Positions 10,794-34,666 of a stretch of DNA of 36,512 bases are shown piece by piece. The stretch lies in the NCBI GenBank assembly GCA_037137755.1, contig JBAXJR010000025.1, positions 1-36,512 of the forward strand. The letters run 5' to 3'. Origin of the DNA: Methanomicrobiales archaeon. Its GTDB lineage: Archaea > Halobacteriota > Methanomicrobia > Methanomicrobiales > Methanospirillaceae. Below the pieces are notes generated by a model. The model made no database searches. It was not told where the DNA came from and saw only the letters and a program-made list of their open reading frames with translations. Position 1 is the first letter of the stretch. Each line of letters opens with the position of its first letter. Both the position numbers and the translations under genes were made by a program.

Positions 10794-11015
10794 ATGATGG
10801 AGAGTATCACGGTCCCGCTCTGGGCGGCCCTCCAGGTGGCCAGGTGGAGAAAACGGGCAATTCCGAGGTGGAAACGGTGGCGTTTACAGAATCCCGAAAA
10901 GGATAAAGAGCAAAGGAAGGCCTATTATTGGCGGAATCGGGATAAAATCGCTGTAAATAGCAGGATTCGTTACCAGAGGAGAAAGGAGGCTAATCCGGGC
11001 GATTTAGACGAATAA
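10794..11015 (+). CDS. Small highly basic Arg/Lys/Trp-rich protein divergent from cdc6
   Basis: 73 aa from ATG 10794; 9 of 19 differences against the copy at 34441-34595 are synonymous in this frame, supporting coding constraint. Confidence 0.65.
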   Translation: MMESITVPLWAALQVARWRKRAIPRWKRWRLQNPEKDKEQRKAYYWRNRDKIAVNSRIRYQRRKEANPGDLDE

Positions 11016-11201
11016 TAAGAAGGTTTATGATGTAGGTGGGTAAGGTTGGTTCAATGAATATCAGGGTTTAAGATAAAAAGGGGCTAAAATGGGCGTTTTT
11101 ATACGAATACTGTCTAACTACCATATTTCCATTATCTTACCCCTTTTATCCACCGGAGGGGAGAAAATATACCTGAAAAATTTAAAATCAGCACCTAGGA
11201 A

Positions 11202-11229
11202 AATATAGGTGCCTATATATAGCCTATAG
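11202..11229 (-). promoter_or_regulatory. Candidate Pho-box operator (CTATAG-N16-TATATT, reverse orientation)
   Basis: AATATA-N16-CTATAG 46 nt upstream of the AbrB-PhoU gene; overlaps the inverted repeat GCACCTA-N8-TAGGTGC (11191-11212). Confidence 0.65.
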
Positions 11230-11275
11230 GGGAATAAAGTTTTAGAACAATCAGAATGGATGGGCTGAATCAGAT

Positions 11276-12286
11276 ATGGATATCAGAAAGGTGCAGGTAA
11301 CCGGGGGTTCTTCATACATTATCACGCTCCCAAAGGAATGGATCGAGAAATTACACGTTCAGAAGAATGATCCTCTTGGTCTGATTTCACAGCCGGACGG
11401 GACACTACTTGTCACTAAAAATATCAGCGATGCACAGGTGCAATCAGTCAAGGAATTTGACGTCACCTCGATCAATGATCCGGCTTATCTTTTCAGGCTC
11501 CTGATCGGGGCATATATTGCCGGGTTCACCACGATAAGGATTAAAGCAAAGCACCGGTTCTCACCGTTCGTCCGGCAGGTCGTCCGTGATTTCGCCCAGA
11601 TGACCATCGGTCCCGAAGTCATTGAAGAGACGGATTCCACGATGGTGTTAAAGGACCTCTTAAACCCGATGGAGATGCCGTTTGACAATACGCTCAAGCG
11701 GATGTTTGTGGTTGTAAAAAACATGCAGCTCGATGCCGTTGTGGCTATCGAGACAAACAACCCCACTCTTGCCGATGACGTCATTGCACGGGACAACGAT
11801 GTCGACAGGCTCCACTGGCTGATTGCCCGCCAGATGAACGTGATCCTGAAAAACGTCAATTTGTCGAGGAAGATGAACCTCTCCACATCACTCGTGGTGA
11901 ATACCTACCTGATCAGCAGGATTGTCGAACGGATCGGGGACCACGCGGTCAGGATGGCCGAAAATATGAAAAGGATCACCGATGAGGATATCGGAAAGAA
12001 TACAAAGAAGGCAATACGTACTGCAAATACCATTGCTCTTGCAATTTTCGATAAAAGTATCGTCTCGTTTTTCCAGTCCGATATTGTAGCTTCGCACCAG
12101 AATATCGAGTCAATCACGGAACTTGAGGCAGCGTGTGAACAAATCAACGCCCTTTCTATGGAGATGGGCACCCCGCTCGCAATATCACTTCACTACATAG
12201 CAGAGAGCATTCGGAGGTCCGGGGAGTACGCCGGTGACATATCGGAGACGGTTATCAATTACCTTGTGGAAGAACAGGGTATATAA
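11276..12286 (+). CDS. phoU: Archaeal phosphate uptake regulator (AbrB/SpoVT DNA-binding domain plus two PhoU domains)
   Basis: RKVQVTGGSSYIITLPKEW AbrB N-terminus; RDNDVDRL, VERIGDHA and ESIRRSGEYAGDI PhoU motifs. Confidence 0.93.
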   Translation: MDIRKVQVTGGSSYIITLPKEWIEKLHVQKNDPLGLISQPDGTLLVTKNISDAQVQSVKEFDVTSINDPAYLFRLLIGAYIAGFTTIRIKAKHRFSPFVRQVVRDFAQMTIGPEVIEETDSTMVLKDLLNPMEMPFDNTLKRMFVVVKNMQLDAVVAIETNNPTLADDVIARDNDVDRLHWLIARQMNVILKNVNLSRKMNLSTSLVVNTYLISRIVERIGDHAVRMAENMKRITDEDIGKNTKKAIRTANTIALAIFDKSIVSFFQSDIVASHQNIESITELEAACEQINALSMEMGTPLAISLHYIAESIRRSGEYAGDISETVINYLVEEQGI

Positions 12287-12447
12287 TCCCCATTTCCTTT
12301 TTTTGCGTAGTGCTAACATCGTGCGCGTGAGCCCTTCATAACCTCATAATCGCTTTTTTCGTGGATAACTGCGGAAAATCCTTCATTACCAAGTCATCTG
12401 ATTAAAAATAATTCGGGAAAAAACATATACCGGAAATTTGTATCAAT

Positions 12448-12481
12448 CTATAAAATATATAGTTAATATATAGTAATGTAG
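12448..12481. promoter_or_regulatory. Degenerate Pho-box-like site
   Basis: TATATAG repeated at 11-bp spacing (12456, 12467); reads CTACAT-N16-TATATT on the minus strand. Confidence 0.45.
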
Positions 12482-12544
12482 GTAAATACATAACTTATCC
12501 GGGTGATCTCATTATAGCAGTGCGGGATCACCGAGTGACAGACT

Positions 12545-14158
12545 ATGAAACATACGGACGAAGGGCCGGCCGGGATATTGGAATTTGGTACCCGGCAGGA
12601 GTTCTGGTTTTCTGAAAGCAAGAAATCTGTCCAGACCGGGGATTATACTGGTTCAGTTCAGAAAATTGACAAGGCAATTGCTGCATCTCCCAAAAAGCCC
12701 GAACCATGGCTGCTCAAAGGATATGTTACCTACCACCTCGGCCGTTTTGATGAGGCAGTCCAGTTGTTCGACCACGTCCTGAAACTTGATCCAGGGTTCA
12801 CGAAGGCGCTGTTGTTACGAGGGCTTGCATATATCGCGTTACACCGGTATGAAGAAGCAGTCGGGTCGTGCGACCGGGCACTTATCGGGAACCCTGAAAA
12901 TTCAGAGGGGTGGTATATCCGCGGCCTTGCTTTGAGCAGGCTGGGACTCTACGAAGCCTCAATCCAATGTTACAACCGTGCAATTCTTTTAGCGCCCGGA
13001 TATTCTGACGCATTATACGGGAAAAAACAGGCCGAGAAAAATTATCTGCGGCAGAGAGAGACGTTGGATGAAATATACCGCGACCTGGAACAAGACCCGC
13101 GGAATGTCAAGATCTTAAACCGGATGGGGAAAATACTTGCCACGGTAGGCAGGTTCGAGGAATCACTTGCGATCTATTCCAGGGCTAGGGAAATCGATCC
13201 TGGAAACAGGGATGCTATTCGTGGTTATGATAGTACAGAAAAAAATTCCCAACGATGGGCGGGTCTGCTTATAGAAAATAACAGGGAGGAAAAATATACA
13301 CCTGATACAACACTTGCCGCAGGTGAGGATCGTCCCGTTGAAGCCAGGTCAGATGTCCCACATAATGAAGTATCATGGAACACTGCAGGTATAACTCATA
13401 AGGAACCATGTGCGGCTGCCAGTCCTGCGGTCGAAAACGATGCTGGTGAAACACAATGCCAGATCCAGGCTAGTTTACCAGGTGAGGATATCCAACTATC
13501 TTCTGAATTCTCTATTGAATCTGCATTGGAACTTTCAGGGGACGGGGAATTCCTGGCCGCCATCGAAATGCTGAAACAAATTGTTATTTCCCGCCCGGAT
13601 GACCGGGAACCCGTTATCGCCCTTGCAACAGCGTACGAAACTGCCGGGATGTATTCCGATGCATTATCTGCCTGTGACCGGGCATTACAGATTGATCCGC
13701 AAAATGCTGTATTATGGGGGAAAAGAGGGAAAATGCTCATGAAGACTGGCAGGTTTGAATCCGCCGATGCTGCGTACAGCATGTCTCTTGGCATCAATTC
13801 CGAAGATGCAGGTATTCTCGCTGAACGCGGAGATCTGTTCAGAAAACTCGGGCAATATCCGGAGGCAGAGCAGTCCTATATCAGATCGCTTGAACTTAAG
13901 CCTGACGTTTCCCGGGTTTGGTATCACCGTGGGAAAACCCTTGCCATGCTGAAACGTTACCAGGAGGCAATCGAGGCCTGCGAAATTGCAATTTCCCTTG
14001 ATTATAATTACATTGAGGCCATGACGTACAAAGGATTTCTCCTCTCAAAAATCCAGAGATACCATGATGCGCTGGATGTGTTTGACACCGTGCTGCGTAT
14101 AGATCCCCAATGCAGGGATGCGCAGCGGATCCGCCAGTCCCTTAAAGGGAAGGTGTAA
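12545..14158 (+). CDS. Tetratricopeptide repeat protein
   Basis: Two TPR arrays (W..KG..L..LGR..EA...D.AL..DP) separated by an acidic low-complexity linker. Confidence 0.92.
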   Translation: MKHTDEGPAGILEFGTRQEFWFSESKKSVQTGDYTGSVQKIDKAIAASPKKPEPWLLKGYVTYHLGRFDEAVQLFDHVLKLDPGFTKALLLRGLAYIALHRYEEAVGSCDRALIGNPENSEGWYIRGLALSRLGLYEASIQCYNRAILLAPGYSDALYGKKQAEKNYLRQRETLDEIYRDLEQDPRNVKILNRMGKILATVGRFEESLAIYSRAREIDPGNRDAIRGYDSTEKNSQRWAGLLIENNREEKYTPDTTLAAGEDRPVEARSDVPHNEVSWNTAGITHKEPCAAASPAVENDAGETQCQIQASLPGEDIQLSSEFSIESALELSGDGEFLAAIEMLKQIVISRPDDREPVIALATAYETAGMYSDALSACDRALQIDPQNAVLWGKRGKMLMKTGRFESADAAYSMSLGINSEDAGILAERGDLFRKLGQYPEAEQSYIRSLELKPDVSRVWYHRGKTLAMLKRYQEAIEACEIAISLDYNYIEAMTYKGFLLSKIQRYHDALDVFDTVLRIDPQCRDAQRIRQSLKGKV

Positions 14159-14159
14159 A

Positions 14160-14507
14160 TTGATCAAATCGATTCTTTCAGAGCTCCTTGAAATCCAGGG
14201 AGTCAATATCGCTGCAGTTGTCAGCAGGGATGGTTTTGTTATCGAAAGCACGGCCCTTGGCAAGGTCGATATCGATGCACTTGGGGCAATGACCTCCACC
14301 GGGATACGATATTACGAAATCCTTGGCTACGAGCTCAAAAAAGGAGGGGTCAGGCAGGTGGTGCTCGACCTCAACAAAGGCACGATTATCCTGATCCCTA
14401 TCTCAAACGAAGTATTTATGGCGATCATCACCGATCCAAAGGCAAATACCGGTTTCATCACCCATGAATCGGGAAAAACAAGGGGACGCCTGATGGCTGC
14501 AATGTGA
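14160..14507 (+). CDS. Roadblock/LC7 (MglB-like) protein
   Basis: GVNIAAVVSRDGFVIES, DALGAM and ANTG; TTG start 1 nt after the TPR stop with AGGTG upstream. Confidence 0.88.
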   Translation: MIKSILSELLEIQGVNIAAVVSRDGFVIESTALGKVDIDALGAMTSTGIRYYEILGYELKKGGVRQVVLDLNKGTIILIPISNEVFMAIITDPKANTGFITHESGKTRGRLMAAM

Positions 14508-14510
14508 ACC

Positions 14511-14774
14511 ATGAGACCATTCATCACATTTTTTGGGTTAGTTCTGGTCGTCCCGGGATGGACCCTTCTATCGATAGATCCTTCCGATATCATCAATCCA
14601 CATTTTTCCACCCCTTCCGGATCATTGTTATGGGAATTAATGGGTACTCCACATGATATAGGGCAAATTCATCTCTATGGCCTTGCGGTCATCATGCTTG
14701 GCATAATCATCGCGTTGTACGGTCTGTTAACAACACCCGGTGAAGAAGACAACAGTTCATCGTTAGTAATGTAG
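14511..14774 (+). CDS. Small membrane protein with two TM helices
   Basis: Starts 3 nt after the roadblock stop; two hydrophobic helices. Confidence 0.7.
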   Translation: MRPFITFFGLVLVVPGWTLLSIDPSDIINPHFSTPSGSLLWELMGTPHDIGQIHLYGLAVIMLGIIIALYGLLTTPGEEDNSSSLVM

Positions 14775-15410
14775 AGGCGCAGAAGTAATTTTCATACATC
14801 CCGTTGTATCAAACGAGGGCCTTTGCATGTTTGTGAGGAATTCCCGGGGACCGTCAAACCGGTCCATATTCATAAAACACCCTCCGAGTTCAGGAGGTGA
14901 ATGTGCGTCGGAACCTACAGAGATGGGTTTTTTATGAATTATTGCATATTCACTGGCCATCTGGTTCTCCCCGGCTTTCATCCTCTTCCCGTTATACCCT
15001 TCGATGATATCGACACGTTCAATGATCGAATCGAGGACGGCCAGACCCATCGCCGTACAACGCATCGAGGAGAAGGGATGGGGAACTATCGAGAGGGCTC
15101 CCTGACCGCGGATCCTGTCAAGAGTCTCGGCCGCTGTAAGGGACGGGGAAATTTCCTCAGTAAGGAACAGGCCGATGATCTCTCCTTCGGAGGTCAGGAT
15201 CTCTTCAGCAAGGATCAGGGGGATATCCCGGTCAGTTTTCCTGATCTTCCTGAACACCTCCACAGAGCCGTCGATAGTATCGTGATCGCACACGATGGAT
15301 AGGATTCCCCTGTTTTCCCACAACCTGACAATATCCATGATATCGTTTGTGGAGTCACTGGAATGGTTGGAATGCACGTGCATGTCACATTTCAGAAGGC
15401 CGTTATCCAC
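14763..15410 (-). CDS. PHP-family metal-dependent phosphoesterase
   Basis: DMHVHS, CDHD, AEEI, PHPF, IEGYN and GSDAH motifs. Confidence 0.92.
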   Translation of the reverse strand: MDNGLLKCDMHVHSNHSSDSTNDIMDIVRLWENRGILSIVCDHDTIDGSVEVFRKIRKTDRDIPLILAEEILTSEGEIIGLFLTEEISPSLTAAETLDRIRGQGALSIVPHPFSSMRCTAMGLAVLDSIIERVDIIEGYNGKRMKAGENQMASEYAIIHKKPISVGSDAHSPPELGGCFMNMDRFDGPREFLTNMQRPSFDTTGCMKITSAPLHY

Positions 15411-15507
15411 TAAAAGTTCCTCCGGTACATTACAATATCATCATGGCTGCAACACGAGATACTGCTACAATTTACTCTGTCAATGGGGATCATTCGTAGT
15501 CGCAACC

Positions 15508-15993
15508 TCACCGGTCTTCCTGTGAAGATTGTATTTTTTCAGCAAACACCGCAAGAATTGGATCGCATTGCTTTGCATCCACATCTTTTTCGACTGTGAC
15601 TGCAGAAGCAACAAATTCCATTTCTTTATCTTCCAGTATCTTTTTCACCTTCTCTATGACACCGTCCGCCCCGGATCCGCCCATTTCCACGAGTACCGAG
15701 AACTTTTTTCCTTCACAGTTTTTAAGTTCTGACAGGTATTGCCTGGTATATGGAGGGAGATTATGCGACCAGACCGGGGTTGCAATTACAAGGTGATCGA
15801 TGGTTTTCATATCAACATTGGCAGGCTTTATTGTACTTTTCAACCCAAATAACGCCGTTATTCCCCCTACTAACGGTCTCGTGCCACTCAGCGGTACAAT
15901 CTCAAAAAAGGAGGCATCCAGTTTTTTTGCCAGGTCGTGTGCAACAGTCCAGGTATGCCCTTTCCACGAATAACATGCGATTACAATTTTCAT
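15508..15993 (-). CDS. Flavodoxin-family protein
   Basis: YSWKGHT FMN-phosphate loop, IATPVW and EMGGSG. Confidence 0.88.
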   Translation of the reverse strand: MKIVIACYSWKGHTWTVAHDLAKKLDASFFEIVPLSGTRPLVGGITALFGLKSTIKPANVDMKTIDHLVIATPVWSHNLPPYTRQYLSELKNCEGKKFSVLVEMGGSGADGVIEKVKKILEDKEMEFVASAVTVEKDVDAKQCDPILAVFAEKIQSSQEDR

Positions 15994-16002
15994 GTAAATT
16001 CC

Positions 16003-16497
16003 TCAGTTTTCTTGTTCCTCTGCCAGGATAGCATCTTTCCCGAAGTCCCAGGGTAAGGCCATCTTTCTCGAAGGACTGAATTCCGCCCATGGAATGGCCT
16101 GTACTCCCGCCCCTTCGGGCTGATCCGCAGAAGTGTGGAAAATCTCTCCAAGGGAGATATGAATTTTCACTGGTTTTAAGCGGTGTTCCGAATGTGCCCA
16201 TCCGGGAACTCTTGCAGGTTTCGCCCGCGTACATGTTGAACAGATATTCTGGTGACATTTTTCACACAGTGTGACCAGGTTATCCAGTTCATTTCCCCCG
16301 CCCGTCCCCCTGGGCCAGAAATGGTGAACCGTGAGGAGGTCTGTTGAAGAACACATGCGACAGAAACCGTCCCGGCGAATCGCAGCACGGCGTGCTTCTG
16401 ACCATTTGAGGGGTTTTTCCTTCTGGATATTCACAGGAAACATGGCTGATTTAACATTAACAACCGGGTTGTTGGGCAATGTTTCAAATGGGCTCAT
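16003..16497 (-). CDS. HNH endonuclease domain protein
   Basis: W...R.A..RRDG.CRMC...TVHH..P...GG.N..DNLVTLCEKCH, plus an extra CxxC. Confidence 0.85.
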   Translation of the reverse strand: MSPFETLPNNPVVNVKSAMFPVNIQKEKPLKWSEARRAAIRRDGFCRMCSSTDLLTVHHFWPRGTGGGNELDNLVTLCEKCHQNICSTCTRAKPARVPGWAHSEHRLKPVKIHISLGEIFHTSADQPEGAGVQAIPWAEFSPSRKMALPWDFGKDAILAEEQEN

Positions 16498-16772
16498 TCA
16501 ATTGAAGATTGAAAACAATTGTAAATATATCTTTTCATTATAGAATATATATTGATATATACAATACGCGGTCACCGGCTCAGACTAATCATCATTGCAC
16601 TTCTCCTCAAAACCCATGCCTCTCTCATCATTGCCTTCCATCAATATCCCCACGATTCACTATGCAGGAATCCGGAGAACCTACGGAATTTGCATTGTTC
16701 TCTTTCCTGCTATTATTTTCGCCATTCATGATTATAGGTTGCATCGTTGACCATCCACCCAGTCTCGTCCTG

Positions 16773-17003
16773 TCAACCATCCGGGTCTGGCAGAAATTTT
16801 TCTGCATGTAGTACCAGGGCAACACCACCAAGGATTATACCGTTCACAATGACCAGCTCCAGAATCAATGGAAATAAGGGAGTCATGGGAATGGGACCCA
16901 TCGCGGGTACCAGCAGAAACGGTAATACAAATAAACCTAAGATTACTATCGCCCCTCCGGTATACCTCAACAAATTTACCAGGAAGATAGAGAGGACATT
17001 CAC
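16773..17003 (-). CDS. Small membrane protein with two TM helices
   Basis: 76 aa, strongly hydrophobic; AT-rich motif-bearing DNA directly upstream. Confidence 0.6.
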   Translation of the reverse strand: MNVLSIFLVNLLRYTGGAIVILGLFVLPFLLVPAMGPIPMTPLFPLILELVIVNGIILGGVALVLHAEKFLPDPDG

Positions 17004-17187
17004 AGTGTCTCTTAATCACTTTCGAAATATATTTTTATTCGCAATAGACTATTGAGATATATATAATCATATGGATTTTTTTAACGAGTTCGCGATACAC
17101 GACAGTAATTTTTTGGGTCCTGCCACCATTGAACCCATGGTCACTGCCTGCAATGTTCGTGTTCCTGTTCGATCGCCCTTGTATCGT

Positions 17188-17565
17188 CTACACCAGTAAG
17201 GGGCACATTTTTTGTAATGAAGGATCAATAATGTCAAGATTATAGCATACATCAGAGAACGAGGTCCCCGTGATCCGTATGTATGTTTCTATAAGATCAA
17301 TTGCATTGTGCGGGTGATCCATTTTTAATTGTAACCACCATTCGCCATTTTCAAACGTGGTTTTTATTATCTCCTGGTTTTGATTTCTGTCGGGCACCCC
17401 AGACAGATTCGCTTCTGCAACTTGGTCCGCCCTGCCATGTTCCACTTTTCCAAAATGGTACAGCGTGGACTCTTGTGGTCGTGATTTCGTTTTCTTCTGG
17501 TTCCCTGTCCCTCTCATCCTGATTAGACATGGCCTGATGATATCTTTTGTCACACATTGTGGCAT
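17188..17565 (-). CDS. Hypothetical protein, start uncertain
   Basis: 125 aa ORF with TATA-like TATATATA about 20-28 nt upstream; no recognisable domain. Confidence 0.5.
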   Translation of the reverse strand: MPQCVTKDIIRPCLIRMRGTGNQKKTKSRPQESTLYHFGKVEHGRADQVAEANLSGVPDRNQNQEIIKTTFENGEWWLQLKMDHPHNAIDLIETYIRITGTSFSDVCYNLDIIDPSLQKMCPLLV

Positions 17566-17588
17566 ACATTATTCTTGGGCTCACGTAT

Positions 17589-17616
17589 ATATAGAATTCC
17601 TACATTAAACTATATT
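17589..17616 (+). promoter_or_regulatory. Pho-box-like site with one mismatch
   Basis: ATATAG-AATTCCTACATTAAAC-TATATT, same 16-nt spacer. Confidence 0.5.
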
Positions 17617-18329
17617 AATACCAATAATTTATAGTAACTATATATTATCTGATAGTGAAGTACGGGAGCATACAACGGTGACCAGAAAAAAGAGCTCCTG
17701 ATTTATAAAGTCCCGAAGGGTGCCTACACCAGGTAGGTATTGGCCAGGTGTGCAATGGGGTATCTTAGTTACTGGTTTTTAGTCACCGATGTGACGCCTG
17801 CGTCCTGAACCATCCACTTGATTTTAATTAATAAATAAAACCCCTGCTCCGTGAGAAGAAGGGGGTTCAGGAATAATTCCCTATTTCGAACCAGAAGTGC
17901 AGAATAGCCGCGCCGGTCACGGAGTTGCATGCAAGTGAAAACCATATAGTTTTGCTGCCAGATCTCTATAATTTCCTCAAAATATTGATTGACCGTGGCT
18001 GTGATCCAAAATATTATTTCCACGGTTTTTCGAGATCGGGCAAGGTATGGAAGAGTACAATCACAATATTTACTACCTGATGAACTGAGTACCAGTTGAT
18101 AAGAGATGCCACTTGTTGAGGAAATACCAAAGGACTTGAGGGATACATCGCCCCATGCAGAGGTTATTGAAATTATCATGCCCCATAAAGAATGGCGCAC
18201 GCAAAAGCGGGTCCCTGGGAACCACCCGTACCGGAGAAAAATTTAACTCCTTTTTACCACCCGGCAATCCTGAACCAGGAGACATTAGTTTTTTTATCCA
18301 GGTATGTTCTGATCCGGGAGGATTTGGGT

Positions 18330-18580
18330 TCATTTTTATTAATTGCCAGTTTAATGGAGACTTTCCGGGCTACATCTGTAAATGGTTTCAGGATATAGCC
18401 ATCCGACCTGATTTCCTTCATGTTCCGGAGAACTGAATCCTCCATTGCCATCTAAAGAAAAATTATCGGTACTCCTGATCTTGCCAGTATCTGTTTTGCC
18501 AGGAATCTGTTATCAGTTTTTACACGGAGGGAGATCTCGGTAATTATACAATATGCTGGTTTGAATCCGAGCAACTTTTT
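18330..18580 (-). pseudogene. Degenerate response-regulator receiver fragment
   Basis: Minus strand FKPAYCIITEISLRVKTD...AKQILARSGVPIIFL*MAMEDSVLRNMKEIRSDGYILKPF...SIKLAI; in-frame TAG at 18452-18454; no N-terminus; phosphoacceptor Asp position is Glu. Confidence 0.72.
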
Positions 18581-18585
18581 AAAAA

Positions 18586-25557: not shown

Positions 25558-25558
25558 C

Positions 25559-27224: not shown

Positions 27225-29174
27225 GTGGCTGAAGACAAATCCTCACCCTCTCTGCAGGTTTTCAAACCTGCCGCAAGGAATATCAAAGAAGGCATGATGA
27301 CCTCATTATGGTTCATATGCGCCGTATTTGCCGTCGTGGTAGTTTGTTTTATCCTCGTATTCCTGCTCTACAATGGCTACCCGGCGTTTTCTACCATCGG
27401 GCTTCCCGATTTCCTTTTTGGAGACACATGGAGTCCAACCGGAAACCCACCTCTTTATGGTATTTATCCACTCATCATTGATACCCTGCTTGTCATGGCC
27501 CTTGCCATGCTGATTGCAATACCCCTTGGTATTGCGAGCGCAATCTACATCAGCGAACTGGCGCATAAAAAAGTCAAGGCTGTTGTGAAACCCGCTGTTG
27601 AACTTCTCGCCGGTATCCCATCTGTTGTGTTCGGGTTCTTTGGGCTTGTTGTACTGACCGAGCTGCTCCGCGTATCGTTTGATGTCCCGAGTGGTGAATG
27701 CTGGCTGGCTGGTTCAATCCTCCTCGGGATAATGGCACTTCCCACAATCATCAGTGTATCAGAAGACGCCATCAGTTCCGTTCCAAAGGAATTCCGAGAA
27801 GGCTCTCTCGCAACTGGTGCAACAAAATGGCAGACAATCAGCAGGGTAGTCGTTCCTGCTGCACTTTCCGGAATTACTGCAGCAGTTATCCTCGGGATCG
27901 GGCGGGCCATAGGAGAGACGATGGCTGTCCTGATGGTAACCGGTAATGCCGCAGTGATTCCATCCCCGATCTGGAACGTCCTTTCCCCGGTCAGGACCCT
28001 GACCGCAACCCTCGGTATTGAAATGGGGGAGGTAGCAGTGGGAAGCCTCCATTATAGTGCCCTTTTTGGTATTGCGGTCGTATTGCTTATTATTACCCTC
28101 GTCATAAACCTGACCGCCTACAAGATCCTCGGGCGGATCAGGGCAGGACAGACCGGTGTCGGGGCGGGTGGCAGAAAGTACCTGTCCCATAAAACAGCAG
28201 ACTCCCTGAAAAAATATGGACTGTATGTGATTGTTGCTCTTACACTCCTGTTTGTCTTTATTGCGGCCGGACTGATTGCAGGGCTTGTATGTATTCTTGC
28301 TGTAATCCTGTGGTATGTACTGAGGGAGAAACTGAACCAGCGCCAGGTGCAGAAAGCTGCGTTCAGCATTTTATGGATTGCAATCGGTGCTGTATTAGTT
28401 ATTCTTGGGTGTATTATTGCCGATATCGTAATCAATGGCCTTCCTGCTATCAGCTGGGAGTTCCTTACCACGGCGCCTAAGAACCTGGGAAGGGACGGCG
28501 GAATTGCACCTGCAATAGTCGGTACTTTCTACCTGGTCCTCGGTGCAATTCTCATTGCATTACCTCTCGGCATTGGTGCTGCAATCTACCTCAACGAGTA
28601 TACCCGCGAAGGCCGGATTACCCGGACGATCCGGACAGGTGTTGACCTGTTAAACGGCACCCCCTCAATTGTCTTTGGGTTGTTCGGGTTCGCATTCCTT
28701 GTCCTCTATCTCAAATTCGGTGTTTCCCTCCTCGCAGGGCAGGTGACACTTGCCCTGATGGTACTCCCCACCATGATCAGGACTGCCGAGGAATCGCTGA
28801 AAAATGTCCCGATGTCAGTGCGGGAAGGGAGTCTTGCACTTGGTGCCACAAAATGGCAGACTGTGAGGAGTGTCGTGCTGCCACCTGCGGTCCCGGGAAT
28901 TATCACCGGAACGATTCTTTCAATCGGGCGGGCAGCAGGCGAGACGGCCCCGATCCTGTTCACGGCGGTGGTGTTTTCATCAAGAACGCTTCCAACCTCT
29001 GAATTTGAACCGGTAATGGCTCTCCCTTACCACCTGTACATCCTTTCAACGAATGTCCCCGGAGCCACGACGAACCAGTACGGGACTGCACTGGTGCTCC
29101 TGATTCTTGTAATCGGGTTCTACCTTGCCGCAATTATCGTGAGACGACACTACCATATGAAAATCCGATGGTGA
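27225..29174 (+). CDS. pstA: Phosphate ABC permease, PstC-PstA fusion
   Basis: Two permease units ([12 protein letters not shown]...[10 protein letters not shown] and [10 protein letters not shown]...GRAAGETAP) in one frame; GTG start. Confidence 0.93.
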
Positions 29175-29179
29175 TTCAC

Positions 29180-29944
29180 ATGACAGAATTTAAAGAAATA
29201 ATCCGGGTAGACCACTTAAATCTCTGGTACGGGGATTCGATTGCCCTCCGGGATATCACAATGGGCATGCCGGACCGCCAGGTAACAGCCCTGATCGGAC
29301 CTTCAGGCTGTGGAAAATCCACCCTGATCAGGTGTTTAAACCGAATGAACGACCTCGTGGAAATCTGCCGGATCCAGGGTGCGGTGAATTTCCATTCCAA
29401 GAACATCTATGCCAGCGATGTCGACCCGGTCGAGATCAGGCGGAAGATCGGCATGGTGTTCCAGCGGCCAAACCCTTTCCCGAAGTCGATTTATGAAAAT
29501 GTCTCCTATGGTCCACGTGTCCATGGCGTTAAGGACAGGAAGGAGCTTGATGAGGTTGTTGAGAAAAGTCTTCGAAGTGCCGCGTTGTGGGACGAAGTAA
29601 AAGACCGGCTCCACGATTCGGCAATGGGCCTTTCAGGTGGACAGCAGCAGCGGCTCTGCATTGCCCGCACCCTTGCGGTAGAACCGGAAGTCATCCTGAT
29701 GGACGAACCCTGTTCCGCACTCGACCCGATTGCAACGGCAAAGATTGAAAGCCTTATTGAAGAGTTAAAGACCGAGTATTGTGTCGTAATCGTCACCCAC
29801 AACATGCAGCAGGCGTCGCGTGTAAGCGATTACACAGGATTTATGTACATGGGTGAACTGGCTGAATTCGGGACAACCAGACAGATATTCGAGAACCCGC
29901 ATGAAACGCTCACAGAAAATTACATTACCGGAAGATTTGGATAG
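29180..29944 (+). CDS. pstB: Phosphate ABC transporter ATP-binding protein
   Basis: [32 protein letters not shown] and ENYITGRFG; GGTGA RBS before ATG 29180. Confidence 0.97.
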
Positions 29945-30603
29945 TGATTCTGGTGTCAGATAAATTCCACGATGAAATTTCAGCCCTTCGCCAGGACGTT
30001 GTCATAATGGCCCGCTTCGGAAGGGATATGCTTAACGATTCGATGACCGCCCTGCAACTACAGGACGTGGAGATGGCGAACGAGGTAAAATCCAGGAAAA
30101 CATCCCTTTCAGAGCAGCATGATTCCCTTGAAGATCGGGTCTTCACGATGATTGCACTCTACCAGCCGGTTGCAAGGGACCTCCGGACGCTGGTATGTTC
30201 GCTCATGATCGTCCAGGCAAGCGAACGGATCGGGCGTTACGGGAAAGATATTGCAAATGCAACAAGACACCTTTCAGACACAGAATCTACGGGTAATTTC
30301 ATCAGCATCCCCCATATGGGAGAGCTGGTCATAGAGATGATCGATGATGCCATTCTTGCTTATGAACAGGAAGATCTCACAAAAATAGAAGATATGTCAA
30401 AACGGGACGATGTGGTCGATTCACTCAGGACCTCGATATTTCGTGAATGTTTGACATACATGATGGAAGACCCGCGTACCATCACCCGGTGCACGCACTA
30501 CGTCATGATCTCCCGCTTCCTTGAACGGAGCGGGGACCATGCATGTAAGATGGCGGAAAAAATCAATTACATGGTCACCGGTGAACGGATCGAGATAAAA
30601 TAG
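29944..30603 (+). CDS. phoU: Phosphate transport accessory protein PhoU
   Basis: IALYQPVARDLR, ERIGRY, RDDVVD and LERSGDHA. Confidence 0.95.
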   Translation: MILVSDKFHDEISALRQDVVIMARFGRDMLNDSMTALQLQDVEMANEVKSRKTSLSEQHDSLEDRVFTMIALYQPVARDLRTLVCSLMIVQASERIGRYGKDIANATRHLSDTESTGNFISIPHMGELVIEMIDDAILAYEQEDLTKIEDMSKRDDVVDSLRTSIFRECLTYMMEDPRTITRCTHYVMISRFLERSGDHACKMAEKINYMVTGERIEIK

Positions 30604-30630
30604 CCCCTGAAAAGAAAAAATGGAAAAACT

Positions 30631-31059
30631 ATGAAGGCCACAGGACCCGGTAAAAAAAGCATTTTGTTTCTTTGTAGTTATAACTCCGTACGATCGCAAA
30701 TCGCCGAGGGTCTCATGCGACATGAATTTGGTACCCGGTACGACATCTACAGTGCTGGTGTTGCAAGTGGCGGGGTAAGTCCTCATGCCGTCGCGGTTAT
30801 GAAGGAGATCGGGATTGACATATCCAGCCAGCGTTCAAAATCCATCAATGAATTCAAGGGACGGACCTTCGACGTGGTAGTTACCCTGTGCGACCATGGA
30901 AAAGAGGCCTGCATCTCCTACCTTCCAAAAGGAGACCTGGTCCTTCATCATAATTTTCCCGCTCCGGAAGAGGTAGGTGTCCCGGAAGAGGAGATCGTGA
31001 AACAATTCAGGGACCTGCGGGACCAGATTAAAACATGGCTGATACACAAGTTCGGATAG
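30631..31059 (+). CDS. arsC: Thioredoxin-type arsenate reductase / LMW phosphatase family
   Basis: LFLCSYNSVRSQIAEG P-loop and VVTLCDHGKEAC redox Cys pair. Confidence 0.85.
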   Translation: MKATGPGKKSILFLCSYNSVRSQIAEGLMRHEFGTRYDIYSAGVASGGVSPHAVAVMKEIGIDISSQRSKSINEFKGRTFDVVVTLCDHGKEACISYLPKGDLVLHHNFPAPEEVGVPEEEIVKQFRDLRDQIKTWLIHKFG

Positions 31060-31230
31060 CCAGGATACTCTACTCTTTTTTTCGGTTCTTAAAGAATTTT
31101 TTTGAGAAAGGATTGAAAAAACGGATCCCAACGTGGTTTCCTTGTCTTTTCCATTCACGATAGAACCCCGTAAGGATATGGTTATCCCTGGTCCAGGAGT
31201 TACCAGCCACGGTAATTTTTAAGGTTTTTA

Positions 31231-31280
31231 CTATAGAGACAATAGAGACACCTATATTCTTTAGTGAATAAGCCTATATC
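31231..31280 (+). promoter_or_regulatory. Candidate Pho box plus TATA-like element without an adjacent gene
   Basis: CTATAGAGA-N11-CCTATATTCT, the same arms and spacing as at 27078; TATATC at 31275. Confidence 0.62.
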
Positions 31281-31609
31281 CTATTGAACCAAGAGATTAT
31301 CTGTGGAGTACCTGGCTCATAATGGTCATAGTACCCCGGTAGGACACATGGACTCTCCATCCATGGGACAGAACATCCAGCTTATAGTCCTTGAAGGGAA
31401 TTAAAAATCCAGGTACTCCTTTTCGTGCATCTGTCTTGTAAATCACACGGATTCCTGATTCTGCAGGTATTTTAGATTGCTGATCCCCTTCTTTACAACC
31501 ATTCATGCGTATCCTGTTTCTAAATGTCATAATTTAAGCATATATCCAGTTTATATCAGATTTTCAGGGTTTCTATATTCCGGCGGAGTGTCAATCAGAT
31601 GAAAATTAA

Positions 31610-31660
31610 CTATAGAGTTACTATAGGTGAATATATTTTCTGTCGAGAATTAGTATATAT
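31610..31660 (+). promoter_or_regulatory. Candidate Pho box plus TATA of pstS
   Basis: CTATAG-AGTTACTATAGGTGAA-TATATT at 31610-31637; TATATAT at 31654. Confidence 0.7.
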
Positions 31661-31687
31661 CAAGGGGTCAATTGTTATGAGACCAAT

Positions 31688-32656
31688 ATGGTAAACAATC
31701 TTAAGAAATTTGGAATTGCAGGACTCGTCATTGTAGGACTGCTCATGCTTATGGTCTTTTCAACCGGTTGTGTCAACAACTCTGGTGCAAAGGCTCCGGC
31801 TACTGCTGTACCGACCGCCACTACGACCCAGGTCTCAACACCGATTGCAACACAGGCAACCACAACCGTAGCGAGCACACCTCAGGCCACACAGGCCGCT
31901 GCCGGAAGCAAGACCATGAAGGTATCAGGTTCTACTACGGTCCTCCCAATCGCCCAGAATGCAGCAGATGCATTCATGACAGCCAACGCGGGTACCAATA
32001 TCCAGGTATCCGGCGGTGGATCAGGTGTTGGTGTCCAGCAGATCGGAGACAAACTTGTCGATATCGGGATGTCTTCAAGAGACGTTACCAAGGATGAATT
32101 AGCGAAATACCCGTCCTTCGTCATCACCCCGGTTGCTCTTGACGGAATTGCAGTCATCGTAAACCCCAACAATAACCCGGTCAATTCCCTGACGCTTGCC
32201 CAGATCCGCGATATCTACAATGGGACTGTTACCAACTGGAAAGATGTTGGCGGCAAGGACATGGCAATTGTCGTAATCGGGCGTGACAGTGCATCAGGTA
32301 CCCGTACATTCTTCACCGACACTGTAATGAACAAGCAGAATTACGTGAAGACCCAGCTCGAGAAGAATTCAAACGGTGCAATCCAGCAGAGCATTGCGCA
32401 GACTCCCGGCGCCATCGGCTATGTAGGACTCGGGTTCATCGACCCGACCGTGAAAGCATTAAAGATCAATGTCAATGGTACACTCGTTGAGCCATCAGTA
32501 AAGACGGTCCTCGACAAGAGCTACCCAATCTCGAGGTCACTACTGATGATTACCAACGGTCAGCCATCAGGCCTTGTAAAAGACTATATAAACTACATCC
32601 TGAGCCCTGAAGGCCAGAAACTGGTTACAAAAGAAGGCTTTGTGCCTTTACCCTGA
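31688..32656 (+). CDS. pstS: Phosphate ABC substrate-binding lipoprotein
   Basis: Lipobox STGC, Thr/Ala/Pro linker, SGSTTVLP, GGGSG, MSSR, RDSASGT and YPISR. Confidence 0.96.
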   Translation: MVNNLKKFGIAGLVIVGLLMLMVFSTGCVNNSGAKAPATAVPTATTTQVSTPIATQATTTVASTPQATQAAAGSKTMKVSGSTTVLPIAQNAADAFMTANAGTNIQVSGGGSGVGVQQIGDKLVDIGMSSRDVTKDELAKYPSFVITPVALDGIAVIVNPNNNPVNSLTLAQIRDIYNGTVTNWKDVGGKDMAIVVIGRDSASGTRTFFTDTVMNKQNYVKTQLEKNSNGAIQQSIAQTPGAIGYVGLGFIDPTVKALKINVNGTLVEPSVKTVLDKSYPISRSLLMITNGQPSGLVKDYINYILSPEGQKLVTKEGFVPLP

Positions 32657-32824
32657 ACTCTTTTTTTACCCGTTTAGTTCAGATCGATAACCGGGAATGT
32701 TCTGAAAACCAGATCTTTACACCATGGTACAGAAGAGGGTTCAAACTCTTTATGGTACATGATATGAAAATCCGACCCCAAAAACAGCTCTCTAACAATT
32801 CTCCAAATAGTTCCCCGAGGAAGA

Positions 32825-34489
32825 ATGCAGATCAGCAAACCCCCCGCATTGCAGGCATCAAGGGTTGTTGCATTTATCGACATCGGGACAAATTCGATCA
32901 GGCTTTTTGTAGTCCGGATTAAACCGGATTGTTCGTATTCCGTGATGTCGAGCCAGAAGGAAGTTGTACGGCTCGGTGAAGGGGAATTTGAAAAAAATCT
33001 TATCAGCCATGATGCAATGAACCGGGCCATCATGGTCGCGGGAAGATTTGTGGAACTTGCCCGCTCTTTTGGTGCCGAGGAATTTGTAGCAGTAGCAACC
33101 TCTGCAACTCGTGAAGCGAAAAACAAGCATACATTCCTGTCCCGTCTCCGCCTCGAATCGCACCTTGATGTCCAGGTAATATCGGGAAGGGAGGAAGCCC
33201 GCCTTATCTATCTCGGTGTAACGTCAGCCCTTCACATGGAAGATCGTCATGTGATGATCATCGATATCGGCGGCGGCAGCACAGAGATTGCGATTGGGGG
33301 ACAGAAAGTCTATTCCTTCCTATCGAGCCTTAAACTTGGATCTATTCGTCTCACGAACCAATTCTTCCCTGAACGATATGAAAAGCCGGTGACGAAAGAA
33401 CAATATGAAACTATCAGGAATTATGTCAGGGAACAGCTTAAACCCGTGCTCGGGCAGATAAAACGCCATCCTGCAGACATGTTCATTGGAAGTTCAGGCA
33501 CTATCATCAACCTGTGTGATATCGCCGCCGGGTTGTTTCACCCGGAGGAGGGAAAAAGGACAACTCTGTATGCAACAGACCTGAAAAAAACAGTTTCGTA
33601 TCTCTGTTCCTTATCTCTCCCGGAACGGCGTAAAGTCCAGGGAATTAACTCTGAAAGGGCGGATATTATTGTTGCAGGGGCAGCTATTATCGATACCCTG
33701 ATGCAGGAAATCGGGATAAAAAGCCTTGAAGTGACCCAACGCGGACTCCAGGACGGACTTCTGGCGGATTATCTCTCCCGGATGGACGGTTACCCCCTGC
33801 TTGGGAACCTTTCAGTAAGGGAACGGAGTGTCCTCCAGACGGGGAGAAGTTTCGGGATCAACGAATTCCATGCGAGGACGGTATCAAAACTGGCCCTCGA
33901 TCTCTTTGATTCGGCCAAGAAAGAACAACTCCACAACCTCGGGGATTTAGAAAGGGAGCTTCTTGAATTTGCTGCATTTCTCCACGATATCGGTTCTCTC
34001 ATCTCATTTCAAAACCATCACGAACATTCGTACTATATTATCCGGAACAGTAATCTCCTTGGCTTTAATTCCCGTGAAATTAATATTATGGCGAATATTG
34101 CCCGTTTTCACCGTAAGAAACTTCCAAGGCAGAGAGATTCAACAATTCCCGAACTGAGCAGGGAGGACAGGACTATTATGAGGAAACTTGCGGCATTTCT
34201 CCGCCTTGCCGAGAGCCTGGACAGGAGGCATACCGCATTGATCGAAGGGGTCCGTTTTACTGCAATAACAAAAGAATCTGCAGCTCTCATGGTAGTTGCA
34301 CGGGGTGACTGCCAGTTCGAATCGTGGGGTGTGAAATTTGAGTCAAAACATTTCGAACGGGTATTCGGGCGAAAACTGAACGATACTATTCAGATCTCGG
34401 AAGTTCCCGGAGATGGAGATGCCCTGTTAAGAAAAACGAACAATTCCAAGGTGGAAACAGTGGCGTATACGGAACCCGGAAAAGGATAA
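32825..34489 (+). CDS. ppx: Ppx/GppA exopolyphosphatase with HD domain
   Basis: IDIGTNSIRL, ATSATREA, EEARL, DIGGGSTE, LHDIG and LRLAESLD. Confidence 0.95.
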   Translation: MQISKPPALQASRVVAFIDIGTNSIRLFVVRIKPDCSYSVMSSQKEVVRLGEGEFEKNLISHDAMNRAIMVAGRFVELARSFGAEEFVAVATSATREAKNKHTFLSRLRLESHLDVQVISGREEARLIYLGVTSALHMEDRHVMIIDIGGGSTEIAIGGQKVYSFLSSLKLGSIRLTNQFFPERYEKPVTKEQYETIRNYVREQLKPVLGQIKRHPADMFIGSSGTIINLCDIAAGLFHPEEGKRTTLYATDLKKTVSYLCSLSLPERRKVQGINSERADIIVAGAAIIDTLMQEIGIKSLEVTQRGLQDGLLADYLSRMDGYPLLGNLSVRERSVLQTGRSFGINEFHARTVSKLALDLFDSAKKEQLHNLGDLERELLEFAAFLHDIGSLISFQNHHEHSYYIIRNSNLLGFNSREINIMANIARFHRKKLPRQRDSTIPELSREDRTIMRKLAAFLRLAESLDRRHTALIEGVRFTAITKESAALMVVARGDCQFESWGVKFESKHFERVFGRKLNDTIQISEVPGDGDALLRKTNNSKVETVAYTEPGKG

Positions 34490-34666
34490 GGCCCAAAGAA
34501 AGGCTTATTATTGGCGGAATAGGGGTAAAATCGCTGTAAATAGCAGTATTCGGTACCATAGGAGAAAGGGGGCTAATGCGGGCGATTTAGATGAACGGAG
34601 GCGGGGAAAGTCGGGTAGGGAGGGGTAATAATACCCCTAATTGAGAGAGATTTTTGATAATACTGG
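34430..34666 (+). repeat. 5'-truncated direct repeat of the basic ORF, plus palindrome
   Basis: 34441-34595 versus 10858-11012 aligns without gaps at 136/155 identity; followed by GGGGTA-ATAA-TACCCC; overlaps the last codons of ppx. Confidence 0.93.

What the first reader, a model, noticed from the sequence alone, without database searches (positions are those of the whole stretch)
10848..34666. Entire ~23.4 kb phosphate block is bracketed by 155-bp direct repeats from the cdc6-adjacent basic ORF
Seen: 10858-11012 and 34441-34595 align ungapped at 136/155. The first gene inside is the AbrB-PhoU regulator and the last is ppx. The right copy is 5'-truncated and carries the downstream GAACGGAGGC...palindrome tail that the left copy lacks but the third copy (5471) has. 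I found no integrase or transposase. Inference: an ancestral cdc6-basicORF-palindrome locus was split by arrival of a phosphate island through recombination in the basic ORF, so the island could be excisable or amplifiable.
Basis: partly seen in the sequence, partly recalled or inferred. Interest (0 to 1): 0.8.

Follow-up and report, generated by a model that had tools for sequence, protein, structure and literature searches.

The report
Dispersed small-gene copies flank phosphate genes
The two repeats around the phosphate genes are real, but they are copies of a small, many-copy gene found across related methanogens, and the stretch between them does not look like one mobile island.

Summary
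In detail: 10858-11012 and 34441-34595 match at 136 of 155 bases, extendable to 142 of 163. The repeat is the core of a roughly 310-nt unit. That unit is a 73-82 aa basic protein gene plus a conserved 3' tail, and it is under purifying selection (pN/pS 0.46). It is multi-copy in uncultured Methanomicrobiales: 21 copies at 20 loci from 9 MAGs. The window holds three copies: one intact beside orc1/cdc6, and two that are 5'-truncated. The right copy is fused to the 3' end of ppx and supplies its last 19 codons.

The two window copies are no closer to each other (87.1%) than the left copy is to copies in other species (up to 89.6%). The block between them is composite. In the one informative relative (L018), AbrB-PhoU directly adjoins pstCA-pstB-phoU-arsC-pstS. 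In that relative 14.8 kb of the window's block is absent, ppx is not linked, and a family copy still lies upstream. I found no recombinase, no GC shift and no empty site.

Insertion by recombination within the gene is not excluded, but it is unsupported. The finding is mostly ordinary. The gene family itself is undescribed.

The parts
10794..11015 (+). Intact small basic protein gene (73 aa), the left family copy, transcribed divergently from orc1/cdc6
   Evidence: ORF. It has 21 homologue clusters at 57-100% identity. In this frame pN/pS is 0.46, against 1.06-1.07 in the other two frames. The family profile hits 10803-11107 at E = 1.2e-71.
10850..11012 (+). Left arm of the direct repeat (codons 20-73 of the gene)
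   Evidence: 142 of 163 identical to the right arm.
34433..34595 (+). Right arm of the direct repeat
   Evidence: blastn E = 1.25e-53.
34435..34686 (+). Right family unit: a 5'-truncated pseudogene copy with no start codon, plus the tail and conserved downstream stretch
   Evidence: Aligns to family profile positions 59-309 at E = 8e-69. The open frame 34431-34628 has no ATG, GTG or TTG. The tail-only profile scores E = 3.3e-13.
34622..34637 (+). GC-rich palindrome GGGGTAATAATACCCC spanning the stop codon of the family frame
   Evidence: Sequence. It folds as a 7-bp hairpin. A hairpin of -5.7 kcal/mol or better forms at the same place in 15 of 17 copies. The tail as a whole is not more stable than shuffled sequence (z = -0.77).
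5467..5631 (+). Third family unit, 5'-truncated at about codon 49, with tail
   Evidence: Aligns to family profile positions 143-309 at E = 1.6e-18. The right flank is shared with L003 (window 6614-6729, 74% over 127 nt, E = 1.9e-17).
9481..10611 (-). Orc1/Cdc6-type AAA+ protein, the conserved neighbour of the left copy
   Evidence: NCBIfam NF001624 at 391 bits (cutoff 354). The same divergent pair occurs in L001, L004 and L014.
11276..12286 (+). AbrB/MazE-like plus PhoU-domain regulator, the first gene inside the block
   Evidence: Pfam hits. It is 88% identical to the L018 orthologue, which there adjoins pstCA.
12275..27069 (.). 14.8 kb with no counterpart in L018. It holds TPR, Roadblock, PHP, flavodoxin, HNH, unknown ORFs, an ArsR-type HTH protein, MTH865, CDF, a CHASE4 kinase, a second PstS and a kinase pseudogene.
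   Evidence: blastn and tblastn of L018 against the window; Pfam.
27225..32656 (+). pstCA fusion, pstB, phoU, arsC-like phosphatase and pstS: the pst core, collinear with L018
   Evidence: The proteins are 68-92% identical to L018 (ArsC-like 68%, the other four 85-92%) and the DNA is 77-83% identical.
32825..34489 (+). Exopolyphosphatase Ppx. Its last 19 codons and its stop (34433-34489) lie inside the right repeat, in a different frame from the family gene.
   Evidence: Of the 22 aligned homologues that reach the C-terminus, only P0022 (95% identical, 554 aa) has the same extension. Most of the others are 527-545 aa and end near ISEVP.
34739..36511 (+). Response-regulator/GAF/PAS gene downstream of the right copy; it runs off the window

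Best explanation
The two repeats are paralogous members of a dispersed, protein-coding family. They are not the scars of one insertion.

The family unit is about 310 nt. It consists of a gene for a 73-82 aa basic, probably DNA-binding protein, then a short basic tail, a GC-rich palindrome over the stop codon, and about 70 nt of conserved downstream sequence.

The window holds three units, all on the + strand:
- an intact gene beside orc1/cdc6;
- a relic cut at codon 20 and fused to the end of ppx;
- a relic cut at about codon 49.

The arms are 87% alike because selection keeps the family core alike everywhere, including between species. The 23.4 kb between them is ordinary chromosome. It comprises the native AbrB-PhoU/pst cluster, 14.8 kb of unrelated lineage-specific genes that interrupt it, and ppx.

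The steps differ in how well they are supported.
- Shown: the family status of the repeat, coding constraint, copy numbers, the truncations, the ppx fusion, and the different gene order in L018.
- Inferred: the right copy was once a full gene and lost its head in a deletion that stopped just short of damaging ppx.
- Inferred: family copies act as short patches of homology at which flanks are occasionally exchanged.
- Possible in principle but not shown: recombination between the two arms that would delete or amplify the block. It should be inefficient at 87% identity with a longest exact run of 21 nt.
For: 1. Family status. 21 homologue clusters were found. The genome scan gave 20 archaeal loci with 21 copies in 9 MAGs, up to 7 hits in one MAG, several at contig ends. 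A profile built from copies in other genomes hits the window exactly three times with significance.

2. Coding. All 105 of 105 pairs have pN below pS in the ORF frame, with a ratio of 0.46, against 1.06-1.07 in the other frames. Left against right gives pS 0.325 and pN 0.081.

3. The window pair is not unusually close. Left to right is 87.1%; left to L002 is 89.6%, to L005 87.1%, and to L003 and L008 86.5%. pS between the left copy and foreign copies is 0.17-0.36.

4. The block is not a unit. L018 matches the window only at 11199-12274, 27070-31427 and 31607-32667. After its pstS come an HxlR regulator and an ABC ATPase.

5. A frameshifted family copy lies 1.2 kb upstream of AbrB-PhoU in L018, preceded by a different gene and not by cdc6.

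6. Truncation occurs independently elsewhere: the third window copy against full-length L003, and L017 cut at codon 31 directly after a kinase gene.

7. Bracketing recurs with other cargo. L012 has 300-nt direct copies at 89% identity, 4571 nt apart, around two ABC exporter genes.

8. There is no recombinase among 117 ORFs, no tRNA at the junctions, and GC is 0.464 inside against 0.452 and 0.503 outside.
Against: The complementary anatomy is what a single split of one gene would leave: the head is present only on the left and a recognisable tail only on the right.

Three copies within 36.5 kb is far more than an even spread of roughly ten copies per genome would give.

The DNA downstream of the cdc6-basic pair differs in all three lineages seen, as expected of a recombination or insertion hot spot.

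An informative-site test shows the left copy switching at about 10850. Its head resembles the cdc6-type copy L001 (21 sites against 2) and its core resembles L002 (20 against 10), Fisher p = 2e-5. Protein-level core identities show no class signal, so this may only reflect L001's own divergence.

The right copy shares three residues (Q27, A39, S56) with P0005, a full-length homologue that has the cdc6-type head and a tail.

Only one relative (L018) bears on the gene order. Its contig starts 648 nt upstream of the tblastn match to the family copy.
Confidence: 0.6

Rival explanations
1. An ancestral locus of cdc6, a full basic gene with tail, and the response-regulator gene was split at codon 19/20. 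DNA running from AbrB-PhoU to ppx entered there. It carried its own fragment of a family copy and joined by homologous or homology-assisted recombination within the gene. The block could leave again by recombination between the arms.
For: The split is in register: head on the left, tail on the right. Downstream DNA after the cdc6-basic pair varies between relatives. Informative sites switch at the repeat start. The right copy shares residues with P0005, a full-length cdc6-type homologue that has a tail. The ppx C-terminal extension shows a non-native junction at the right end.
Against: There is no recombinase. The arms differ at 21 of 163 positions, mostly synonymous in the gene frame (pS 0.325), so they diverged as working genes over a span comparable to species splits. 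L018 has a family copy before AbrB-PhoU without cdc6, lacks 14.8 kb of the block, and lacks ppx after pstS. There is no empty site and no GC shift. The mosaic signal is not reproduced at the protein level.
Confidence: 0.2
2. The family unit is the conserved end module of integrated replicon-like elements. It sits beside Orc1/Cdc6 or beside a large putative replication protein. It acts as a portable recombination or attachment site, so direct copies mark cassette boundaries along the chromosome.
For: The unit is multi-copy and several copies lie at contig ends. 8 of 20 loci place it directly after a homologous gene of about 1015 aa, in L009 and L010 with overlapping stop and start. 3 of 20 loci, plus the window, place it beside orc1/cdc6. 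L012 shows a second case of direct copies around cargo. The right end of the unit is sharply defined at about profile position 310 across unrelated flanks. Synonymous divergence of the core (0.36 and 0.56) is lower than that of the adjacent cdc6 (0.57 and 0.73). The core motif recurs, tandemly repeated, in proteins that carry HNH, GIY-YIG or endonuclease VII domains.
Against: No nuclease or recombinase lies in or next to the unit. The large neighbour has no Pfam, NCBIfam, PADLOC, PHROG or PDB sequence match in the libraries at hand, so calling it a replication protein rests on motifs read by eye. Copies are syntenic between species (cdc6 pair; third copy and L003), which suggests long residence. 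The gene is under ordinary purifying selection.
Confidence: 0.12
3. One junction is an assembly artefact. A metagenome assembler joined two loci through the conserved family core, so the apparent bracketing is not real.
For: In related MAGs contigs break inside or at the edge of family copies (L010, L014, L015). The arms share exact runs of up to 21 nt. The left copy shows a change of affinity at the start of the core.
Against: The ppx-repeat junction is seen independently: P0022, 95% identical and from another contig, has the same 19-residue extension. At 87% identity the arms are easily told apart by reads. A family copy upstream of AbrB-PhoU is also seen in L018.
Confidence: 0.05

Closest known systems
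Integrative genomic islands that insert into the 3' end of a gene and leave a partial direct copy (att repeats)
   Same: There is one complete gene copy at one end, a 5'-truncated copy of the same gene at the other, both in direct orientation, with cargo genes between.
   Different: No integrase or other recombinase was found among 117 ORFs. The arms are 13% diverged and the longest exact run is 21 nt. There is no compositional contrast. The cargo is not a unit in the one relative available. How att sites usually look is recalled from general knowledge and was not tested here.
Rearrangement by homologous recombination between dispersed paralogous sequences (as with rRNA operons, IS copies or rhs genes in bacteria; recalled)
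   Same: Several homologous patches lie in direct orientation. Flanks differ between genomes, and deletion or amplification of the interval is possible in principle.
   Different: The patches are short (163 nt) and 87% identical, so recombination should be rare. No rearranged form was observed.
Repeated basic helical motif found in proteins carrying HNH, GIY-YIG or endonuclease VII domains (homing-endonuclease-like proteins)
   Same: A family profile finds these proteins in a library of 1.84 billion representatives: P0152 (E = 4.5e-7, HNH), P0161 (3.2e-5, GIY-YIG) and P0164 (9.4e-5, endonuclease VII). They share the motif W-R-L-x-N-P-E-K...Y-Y-x-x-N-x-x-K-I.
   Different: The family protein has one to one and a half motif copies and no nuclease domain. 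That the motif binds DNA is my inference. The matches are between lysine/arginine-rich sequences, so their E-values may flatter them.
Variable phosphate-acquisition regions of marine picocyanobacteria (recalled, not looked up)
   Same: pst/pho genes sit in a region whose content differs between relatives.
   Different: No transfer or mobility is shown here. The pst core is collinear with the relative, and only the inserted 14.8 kb and the ppx linkage differ.

Membership tests
Site-specific integrative island | A tyrosine or serine recombinase gene inside or next to the element | tested here: not met
   Pfam scans of 37 main ORFs and 80 further ORFs of at least 55 aa found none. PADLOC and NCBIfam scans of the unknown ORFs also found none.
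Site-specific integrative island | Direct repeats at both ends derived from the target gene | tested here: met
   142 of 163 identical, with a full gene on the left and a 5'-truncated copy on the right. The repeats are 13% diverged, with a longest exact run of 21 nt.
Site-specific integrative island | An empty site in relatives, or the same block at another place | tested here: inconclusive
   No locus joins cdc6-basic to the response-regulator gene. L018 has only the pst core, with different borders.
Site-specific integrative island | Composition distinct from the flanks | tested here: not met
   GC is 0.464 inside, against 0.452 (left flank) and 0.503 (right flank).
Composite transposon or IS-bounded element | A transposase gene and terminal inverted repeats at the bounding copies | tested here: not met
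   No transposase domain was found. The inverted-repeat search found only three weak pairs (71-74% complementary), none at the bounding copies.
Dispersed paralogous protein-coding gene family | Several copies per genome with unrelated flanks | tested here: met
   Three copies in the window. Related MAGs have 2 to 7 hits each, with flanks of several kinds.
Dispersed paralogous protein-coding gene family | Purifying selection in one reading frame | tested here: met
   pN/pS is 0.46 in the ORF frame and 1.06-1.07 in the other two. All 105 of 105 pairs have pN below pS.
Dispersed paralogous protein-coding gene family | The two copies in question are no more alike than copies from different genomes | tested here: met
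   Left to right is 87.1%, left to L002 is 89.6% and left to L005 is 87.1%. pS is 0.325, against 0.17-0.36 for left-to-foreign pairs. The right copy's own best match is still the left copy (87.1% against 85.3% for L005).
Homing endonuclease | A nuclease domain (HNH, GIY-YIG, LAGLIDADG or similar) | tested here: not met
   None of the 18 family members scanned against Pfam had a nuclease domain, even at E up to 10. The proteins are 70-109 aa.
Diversity-generating retroelement (template and variable repeats) | A reverse transcriptase nearby and mismatches confined to adenines of one repeat | tested here: not met
   No reverse transcriptase domain was found. Only 5 of the 21 mismatches fall on an A in the left copy.
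Replication origin (ORB elements beside orc1/cdc6) | Several copies of an origin recognition box around an AT-rich stretch | tested here: not met
   The ORB-like word TTCCRAGGTGGAAAC occurs only inside the two repeat arms. With up to 3 mismatches there were 3 matches against 2.08 expected. The resemblance to ORB consensus sequences is recalled.
Ribosomal protein eL39 | A significant match to eL39 sequences or to the Pfam model | tested here: not met
   The only PDB hit was eL39 at E = 2.3. None of 18 members matched a ribosomal model in Pfam at E up to 10.
Known RNA family | An Rfam match at gathering score | tested here: not met
   The only match in the window is a cut-off tRNA at 1-52. RNAalifold found no consensus pairs in the tail, and fold z-scores ran from -1.11 to +0.68.

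The most novel reading that the evidence does not exclude
The roughly 310-nt unit may be the conserved terminal module of an undescribed class of integrated replicon-like elements in Methanoregulaceae. In this reading, its small DNA-binding protein works with a replication initiator: Orc1/Cdc6 in some copies, and in others a protein of about 1015 aa with primase-polymerase-like and P-loop motifs. The unit would also serve as the recombination site through which chromosomal gene blocks, here the pst/ppx genes, are captured and moved between such elements. The phosphate block would then be cargo that can be mobilised without a classical integrase.
Probability: 0.1. Interest if true: 0.7.

Novelty: new member of a known kind. 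Interest (0 to 1): 0.3.

Why it matters
As reported, the finding would have meant a recombinase-free, excisable phosphate-acquisition island in a methanogen. The evidence instead points to an everyday cause: relics and paralogues of a many-copy small gene scattered through a variable chromosome region.

Two things are still worth keeping. First, the gene family has no Pfam, NCBIfam, PHROG or PADLOC model in the libraries used here, and none of its 21 hit clusters carries a name beyond 'hypothetical protein' (most carry none). It is confined to a clade of uncultured Methanomicrobiales and sits repeatedly beside replication-type genes. Second, family copies coincide with places where gene order differs between relatives. 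They may therefore be useful markers of genome plasticity in these peat and lake methanogens.

Tried and rejected
- **Origin of replication.** The ORB-like word occurs only within the two arms and is not enriched.
- **DGR template/variable repeat pair.** Mismatches are not adenine-specific and there is no reverse transcriptase.
- **eL39 paralogue.** The PDB hit has E = 2.3 and Pfam gives no support.
- **Structured RNA in the tail.** There is no Rfam hit, no RNAalifold consensus, and folds are no better than shuffles. Only a local GC-rich palindrome recurs.
- **Mosaic origin of the left copy.** The DNA informative-site test is significant, but protein-level core identities show no class structure. 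I treat this as inconclusive.
- **Precise insertion junctions of the 14.8-kb segment.** The L018 spacer does not align with either window junction.
- **Empty-site search.** The downstream DNA and ORFs of L001, L015 and L004 match neither window flank nor each other.
- **Remnants of the large neighbouring gene in the window.** tblastn found none at E up to 1; the best hit was E = 0.51.
- **Identity of the large neighbouring protein.** There was no significant hit in Pfam, PADLOC, NCBIfam, PHROGs or PDB sequences, either singly (49) or as a profile (75). Homologues are all named hypothetical and carry a Pfam number, PF27228, that is not in the local copy.
- **Literature.** Four searches found nothing on this family or this locus. 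I saw only listings and the starts of abstracts, and read no paper.
- Structure prediction was not accepted. No fold, atlas neighbours or cluster details are therefore available.

Full report
**Observation.**
Positions 10858-11012 and 34441-34595 agree at 136 of 155, and the match extends ungapped to 142 of 163 (10850-11012 against 34433-34595). Within the window blastn gives E = 1.25e-53. Identity collapses on both sides, to 15 of 40 upstream and 12 of 40 downstream. A third partial copy lies at 5471-5529, and its tail (5541-5584) matches 34593-34636 at 36 of 44. The first gene inside the interval is an AbrB/MazE-like plus PhoU-domain protein and the last is Ppx.

**What the repeat is.**
The left arm is codons 20-73 of a 73-codon ORF (10794-11015) transcribed divergently from an Orc1/Cdc6 gene (9481-10611; NCBIfam NF001624, 391 bits against a cutoff of 354). 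The ORF has 21 hit clusters of 59-109 aa at 57-100% identity, one of which is the window's own protein. None has a Pfam domain or a name other than 'hypothetical protein'.

Fifteen full-length DNA copies show purifying selection in this frame only. Mean pN/pS is 0.46, with pN below pS in 105 of 105 pairs, against 1.06 and 1.07 in the other two frames. It is therefore a real gene.

Many homologues continue past the left copy's stop into a short basic tail (for example ...DLNEQGRGKSG..). The right copy has this tail in frame (ERRRGKSGREG, then stop). It ends in a GC-rich palindrome over the stop codon (34622-34637) and is followed by about 70 nt that are also conserved across copies.

**Copies in the window.**
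I built a 331-position DNA profile from 19 copies in other genomes. It hits the window three times with significance and nowhere else (next best E = 0.26):
- 10803-11107, profile positions 10-313, E = 1.2e-71;
- 34435-34686, positions 59-309, E = 8e-69;
- 5467-5631, positions 143-309, E = 1.6e-18.

All three are on the + strand. The right and third copies are 5'-truncated and have no start codon. A tail-only profile finds the right copy (3.3e-13) and the third (3.8e-8) but not the DNA after the left copy (0.77).

**The right junction.**
Ppx runs into the right copy. Its last 19 codons and its stop (34433-34489) are repeat DNA read in a different frame. Of the 22 aligned Ppx homologues that reach the C-terminus, only P0022 (95% identical, 554 aa) has this extension. 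Most of the rest are 527-545 aa and end near ISEVP. The junction is therefore secondary and is seen on a second, independent contig.

**The family elsewhere.**
I set aside L021, an alphaproteobacterial contig with a 23-residue match at E = 6e-5. The remaining 20 loci hold 21 copies, because L012 has two. They come from 9 uncultured Methanomicrobiales MAGs: 7 hits in ELA446, 4 in AM5_bin-0447, 3 in Alinen bin-0030, 2 in ELA640 and 1 in each of five others. Several copies sit at contig ends (L010, L014, L015). The search patterns need an intact core, so decayed copies are undercounted.

The neighbours vary:
- Orc1/Cdc6 in the same divergent arrangement in L001, L004 and L014.
- A homologous gene of about 1015 aa, or remnants of it, directly upstream in 8 of 20 loci (L002, L003, L007, L009, L010, L011, L018, L019). 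In L009 and L010 its stop overlaps the start of the small gene.
- Fic-domain genes in L005 and L006.
- A histidine kinase 3' end followed after 18 nt by a copy cut at codon 31 (L017).

L016 and L018 are frameshifted. L012 has 300-nt direct copies (89% identical, 4571 nt apart) around a 161-aa ORF and two ABC exporter genes. Truncated relics and direct copies around unrelated cargo are thus normal for this family.

**Are the two window copies specially related?**
Over the same 163 columns the left copy is 87.1% identical to the right copy, 89.6% to L002, 87.1% to L005, and 86.5% to L003 and L008. All of those come from other species. The right copy's best match is the left copy (87.1%, then L005 at 85.3%). 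A tree of the core does not resolve the order (supports 0.58-0.79).

Between the arms pS is 0.325 and pN is 0.081. They therefore diverged mainly while coding, by about as much as the left copy differs from foreign copies (pS 0.17-0.36). For scale, pst orthologues of the window and L018 have pS of 0.63. cdc6 has pS of 0.57 and 0.73 against L001 and L004, where the adjacent family core has 0.36 and 0.56. The core evolves slowly at silent sites. High identity between two copies therefore says little about recency.

**The interval.**
Only 7 of about 23 features between the arms are phosphate genes.

L018 comes from a MAG whose pst proteins are 85-92% identical to the window's (the ArsC-like protein 68%). 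It aligns with the window only at 11199-12274 (AbrB-PhoU), 27070-31427 (pstCA to the arsC-like gene) and 31607-32667 (pstS). In L018 AbrB-PhoU is about 470 nt from pstCA, so window 12275-27069 (14.8 kb) has no counterpart there. After pstS, L018 has an HxlR regulator and an ABC ATPase. Within the 2 kb of L018 held downstream there is neither ppx nor a family copy.

A frameshifted family copy with tail lies 1.2 kb upstream of AbrB-PhoU in L018. It is preceded by the C-terminus of the 1015-aa-type gene, not by cdc6.

The two spacers do not align, so I could not define an insertion point. With only two genomes I cannot say which order is ancestral. Adjacency of an AbrB-PhoU regulator to pst genes is the conventional arrangement, from my general knowledge.

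GC is 0.464 in the interval, 0.452 to the left and 0.503 to the right. No recombinase or transposase domain was found in 117 ORFs. No tRNA lies at the junctions.

**Test of the insertion model.**
I looked for an empty site. In L001/L015 and in L004, which have the cdc6-basic pair, the downstream DNA and ORFs match neither window flank nor each other. The region after this pair is therefore variable, but no unsplit locus was seen.

The left copy's head resembles the cdc6-type copy L001 (21 informative sites against 2), while its core resembles L002 (20 against 10; Fisher p = 2e-5). This could mean recombination at the start of the core. At the protein level, however, cdc6-type homologues (P0002 45 of 54, P0003 44 of 54) are as close to the left core as other types (P0007 and P0010, 46 of 54), so I do not rely on it.

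The right copy shares Q27, A39 and S56 with P0005, a full-length cdc6-type homologue that has a tail.

The third copy is a useful control. It is cut at about codon 49, while L003 is full length and shares right-flank DNA with the window (6614-6729, E = 1.9e-17). Head loss therefore occurs in this family without any island.

**What the protein may do.**
A profile search of 1.84 billion representatives found only 40 proteins at E up to 0.001, and 11 at up to 1e-10. The distant hits carry the same motif in tandem (W-R-L-x-N-P-E-K ... Y-Y-x-x-N-x-x-K-I). Three of them also have an HNH, GIY-YIG or endonuclease VII domain (P0152, P0161, P0164). I infer a DNA-binding helical module. The family itself has no nuclease domain.

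**Verdict.**
The best reading (0.6) is that the arms are paralogous members of a dispersed small-gene family, one intact and one a relic fused to ppx, around a composite stretch of chromosome. A cassette or replicon-module role for the unit is a speculative third reading (0.12), and an assembly join is unlikely (0.05). Reads, close relatives and the metagenome collection could not be examined, and they would decide the matter.

Noticed in passing
L009:6957-10004, L010:783-3872; also L002, L003, L018; remnants in L007, L011, L019: A gene of about 1015 aa lies directly upstream of the small basic gene in 8 of 20 loci. It has 1633 homologues in Methanoregulaceae, all named hypothetical, with Pfam number PF27228, which is not in the local copy. 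Invariant D-x-D, S-G-N-G-A-H, G-E-S-G-K-G-K and D-D motifs look to me like a primase-polymerase plus a P-loop NTPase. That reading is from memory, and no HMM or PDB search supported it.
   Followed up: partly
L009:10246-10683 and L019:10249-10713: An ORF of about 150 aa follows the small gene with overlapping stop and start in two loci. The two are 56% identical and match no known family. Together with the upstream genes this suggests a conserved three- or four-gene module.
   Followed up: partly
window 25773-26917, compared with 7739-9409: A second pair of direct repeats (D2 and D4, 78-80% identical, about 17.5 kb apart) is a histidine-kinase paralogue. The copy at 26241-26914 has a frameshift near 26400 and an in-frame stop near 26585, so it is a pseudogene or contains sequencing errors.
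   Followed up: yes
window 27225-29174: pstC and pstA are fused into one 649-aa gene. The same fusion is present in L018.
   Followed up: no
window 16003-19150: An HNH-domain ORF (164 aa) is followed by about 2.6 kb of lower-GC DNA (0.41-0.43) with only short ORFs that match no family. This may be a decayed foreign insert within the 14.8-kb segment.
   Followed up: partly
window 11199-11275 and L018 1911-1988: The 77 nt upstream of AbrB-PhoU are conserved between the two genomes and contain the palindromic GCACCTA...TAGGTGC next to TATATA. This is probably the promoter and operator of the regulator.
   Followed up: no
family core, for example window 10850-11012: Silent-site divergence of the family core (0.36 and 0.56) is lower than that of the adjacent cdc6 gene in the same two loci (0.57 and 0.73). 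This hints at an extra constraint on the DNA or RNA, or at gene conversion. The site counts are small.
   Followed up: partly
window 1-52: The 3' part of a tRNA gene is cut off by the start of the window (Rfam, 36 bits). thiM and thiE follow at 158-1586.
   Followed up: no
window 3013-3753: A 246-aa ORF weakly matches the middle of a Methanoculleus-type S-layer glycoprotein model (65 bits against a cutoff of 600). It is probably a fragment, in a low-GC, ORF-poor stretch (1.9-5.9 kb).
   Followed up: no
L012:8-307 and 4579-4878: Two full family copies form 300-nt direct repeats (89% identical) around a 161-aa ORF and a pair of ABC exporter genes. This is a second case of bracketing, with different cargo.
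   Followed up: partly
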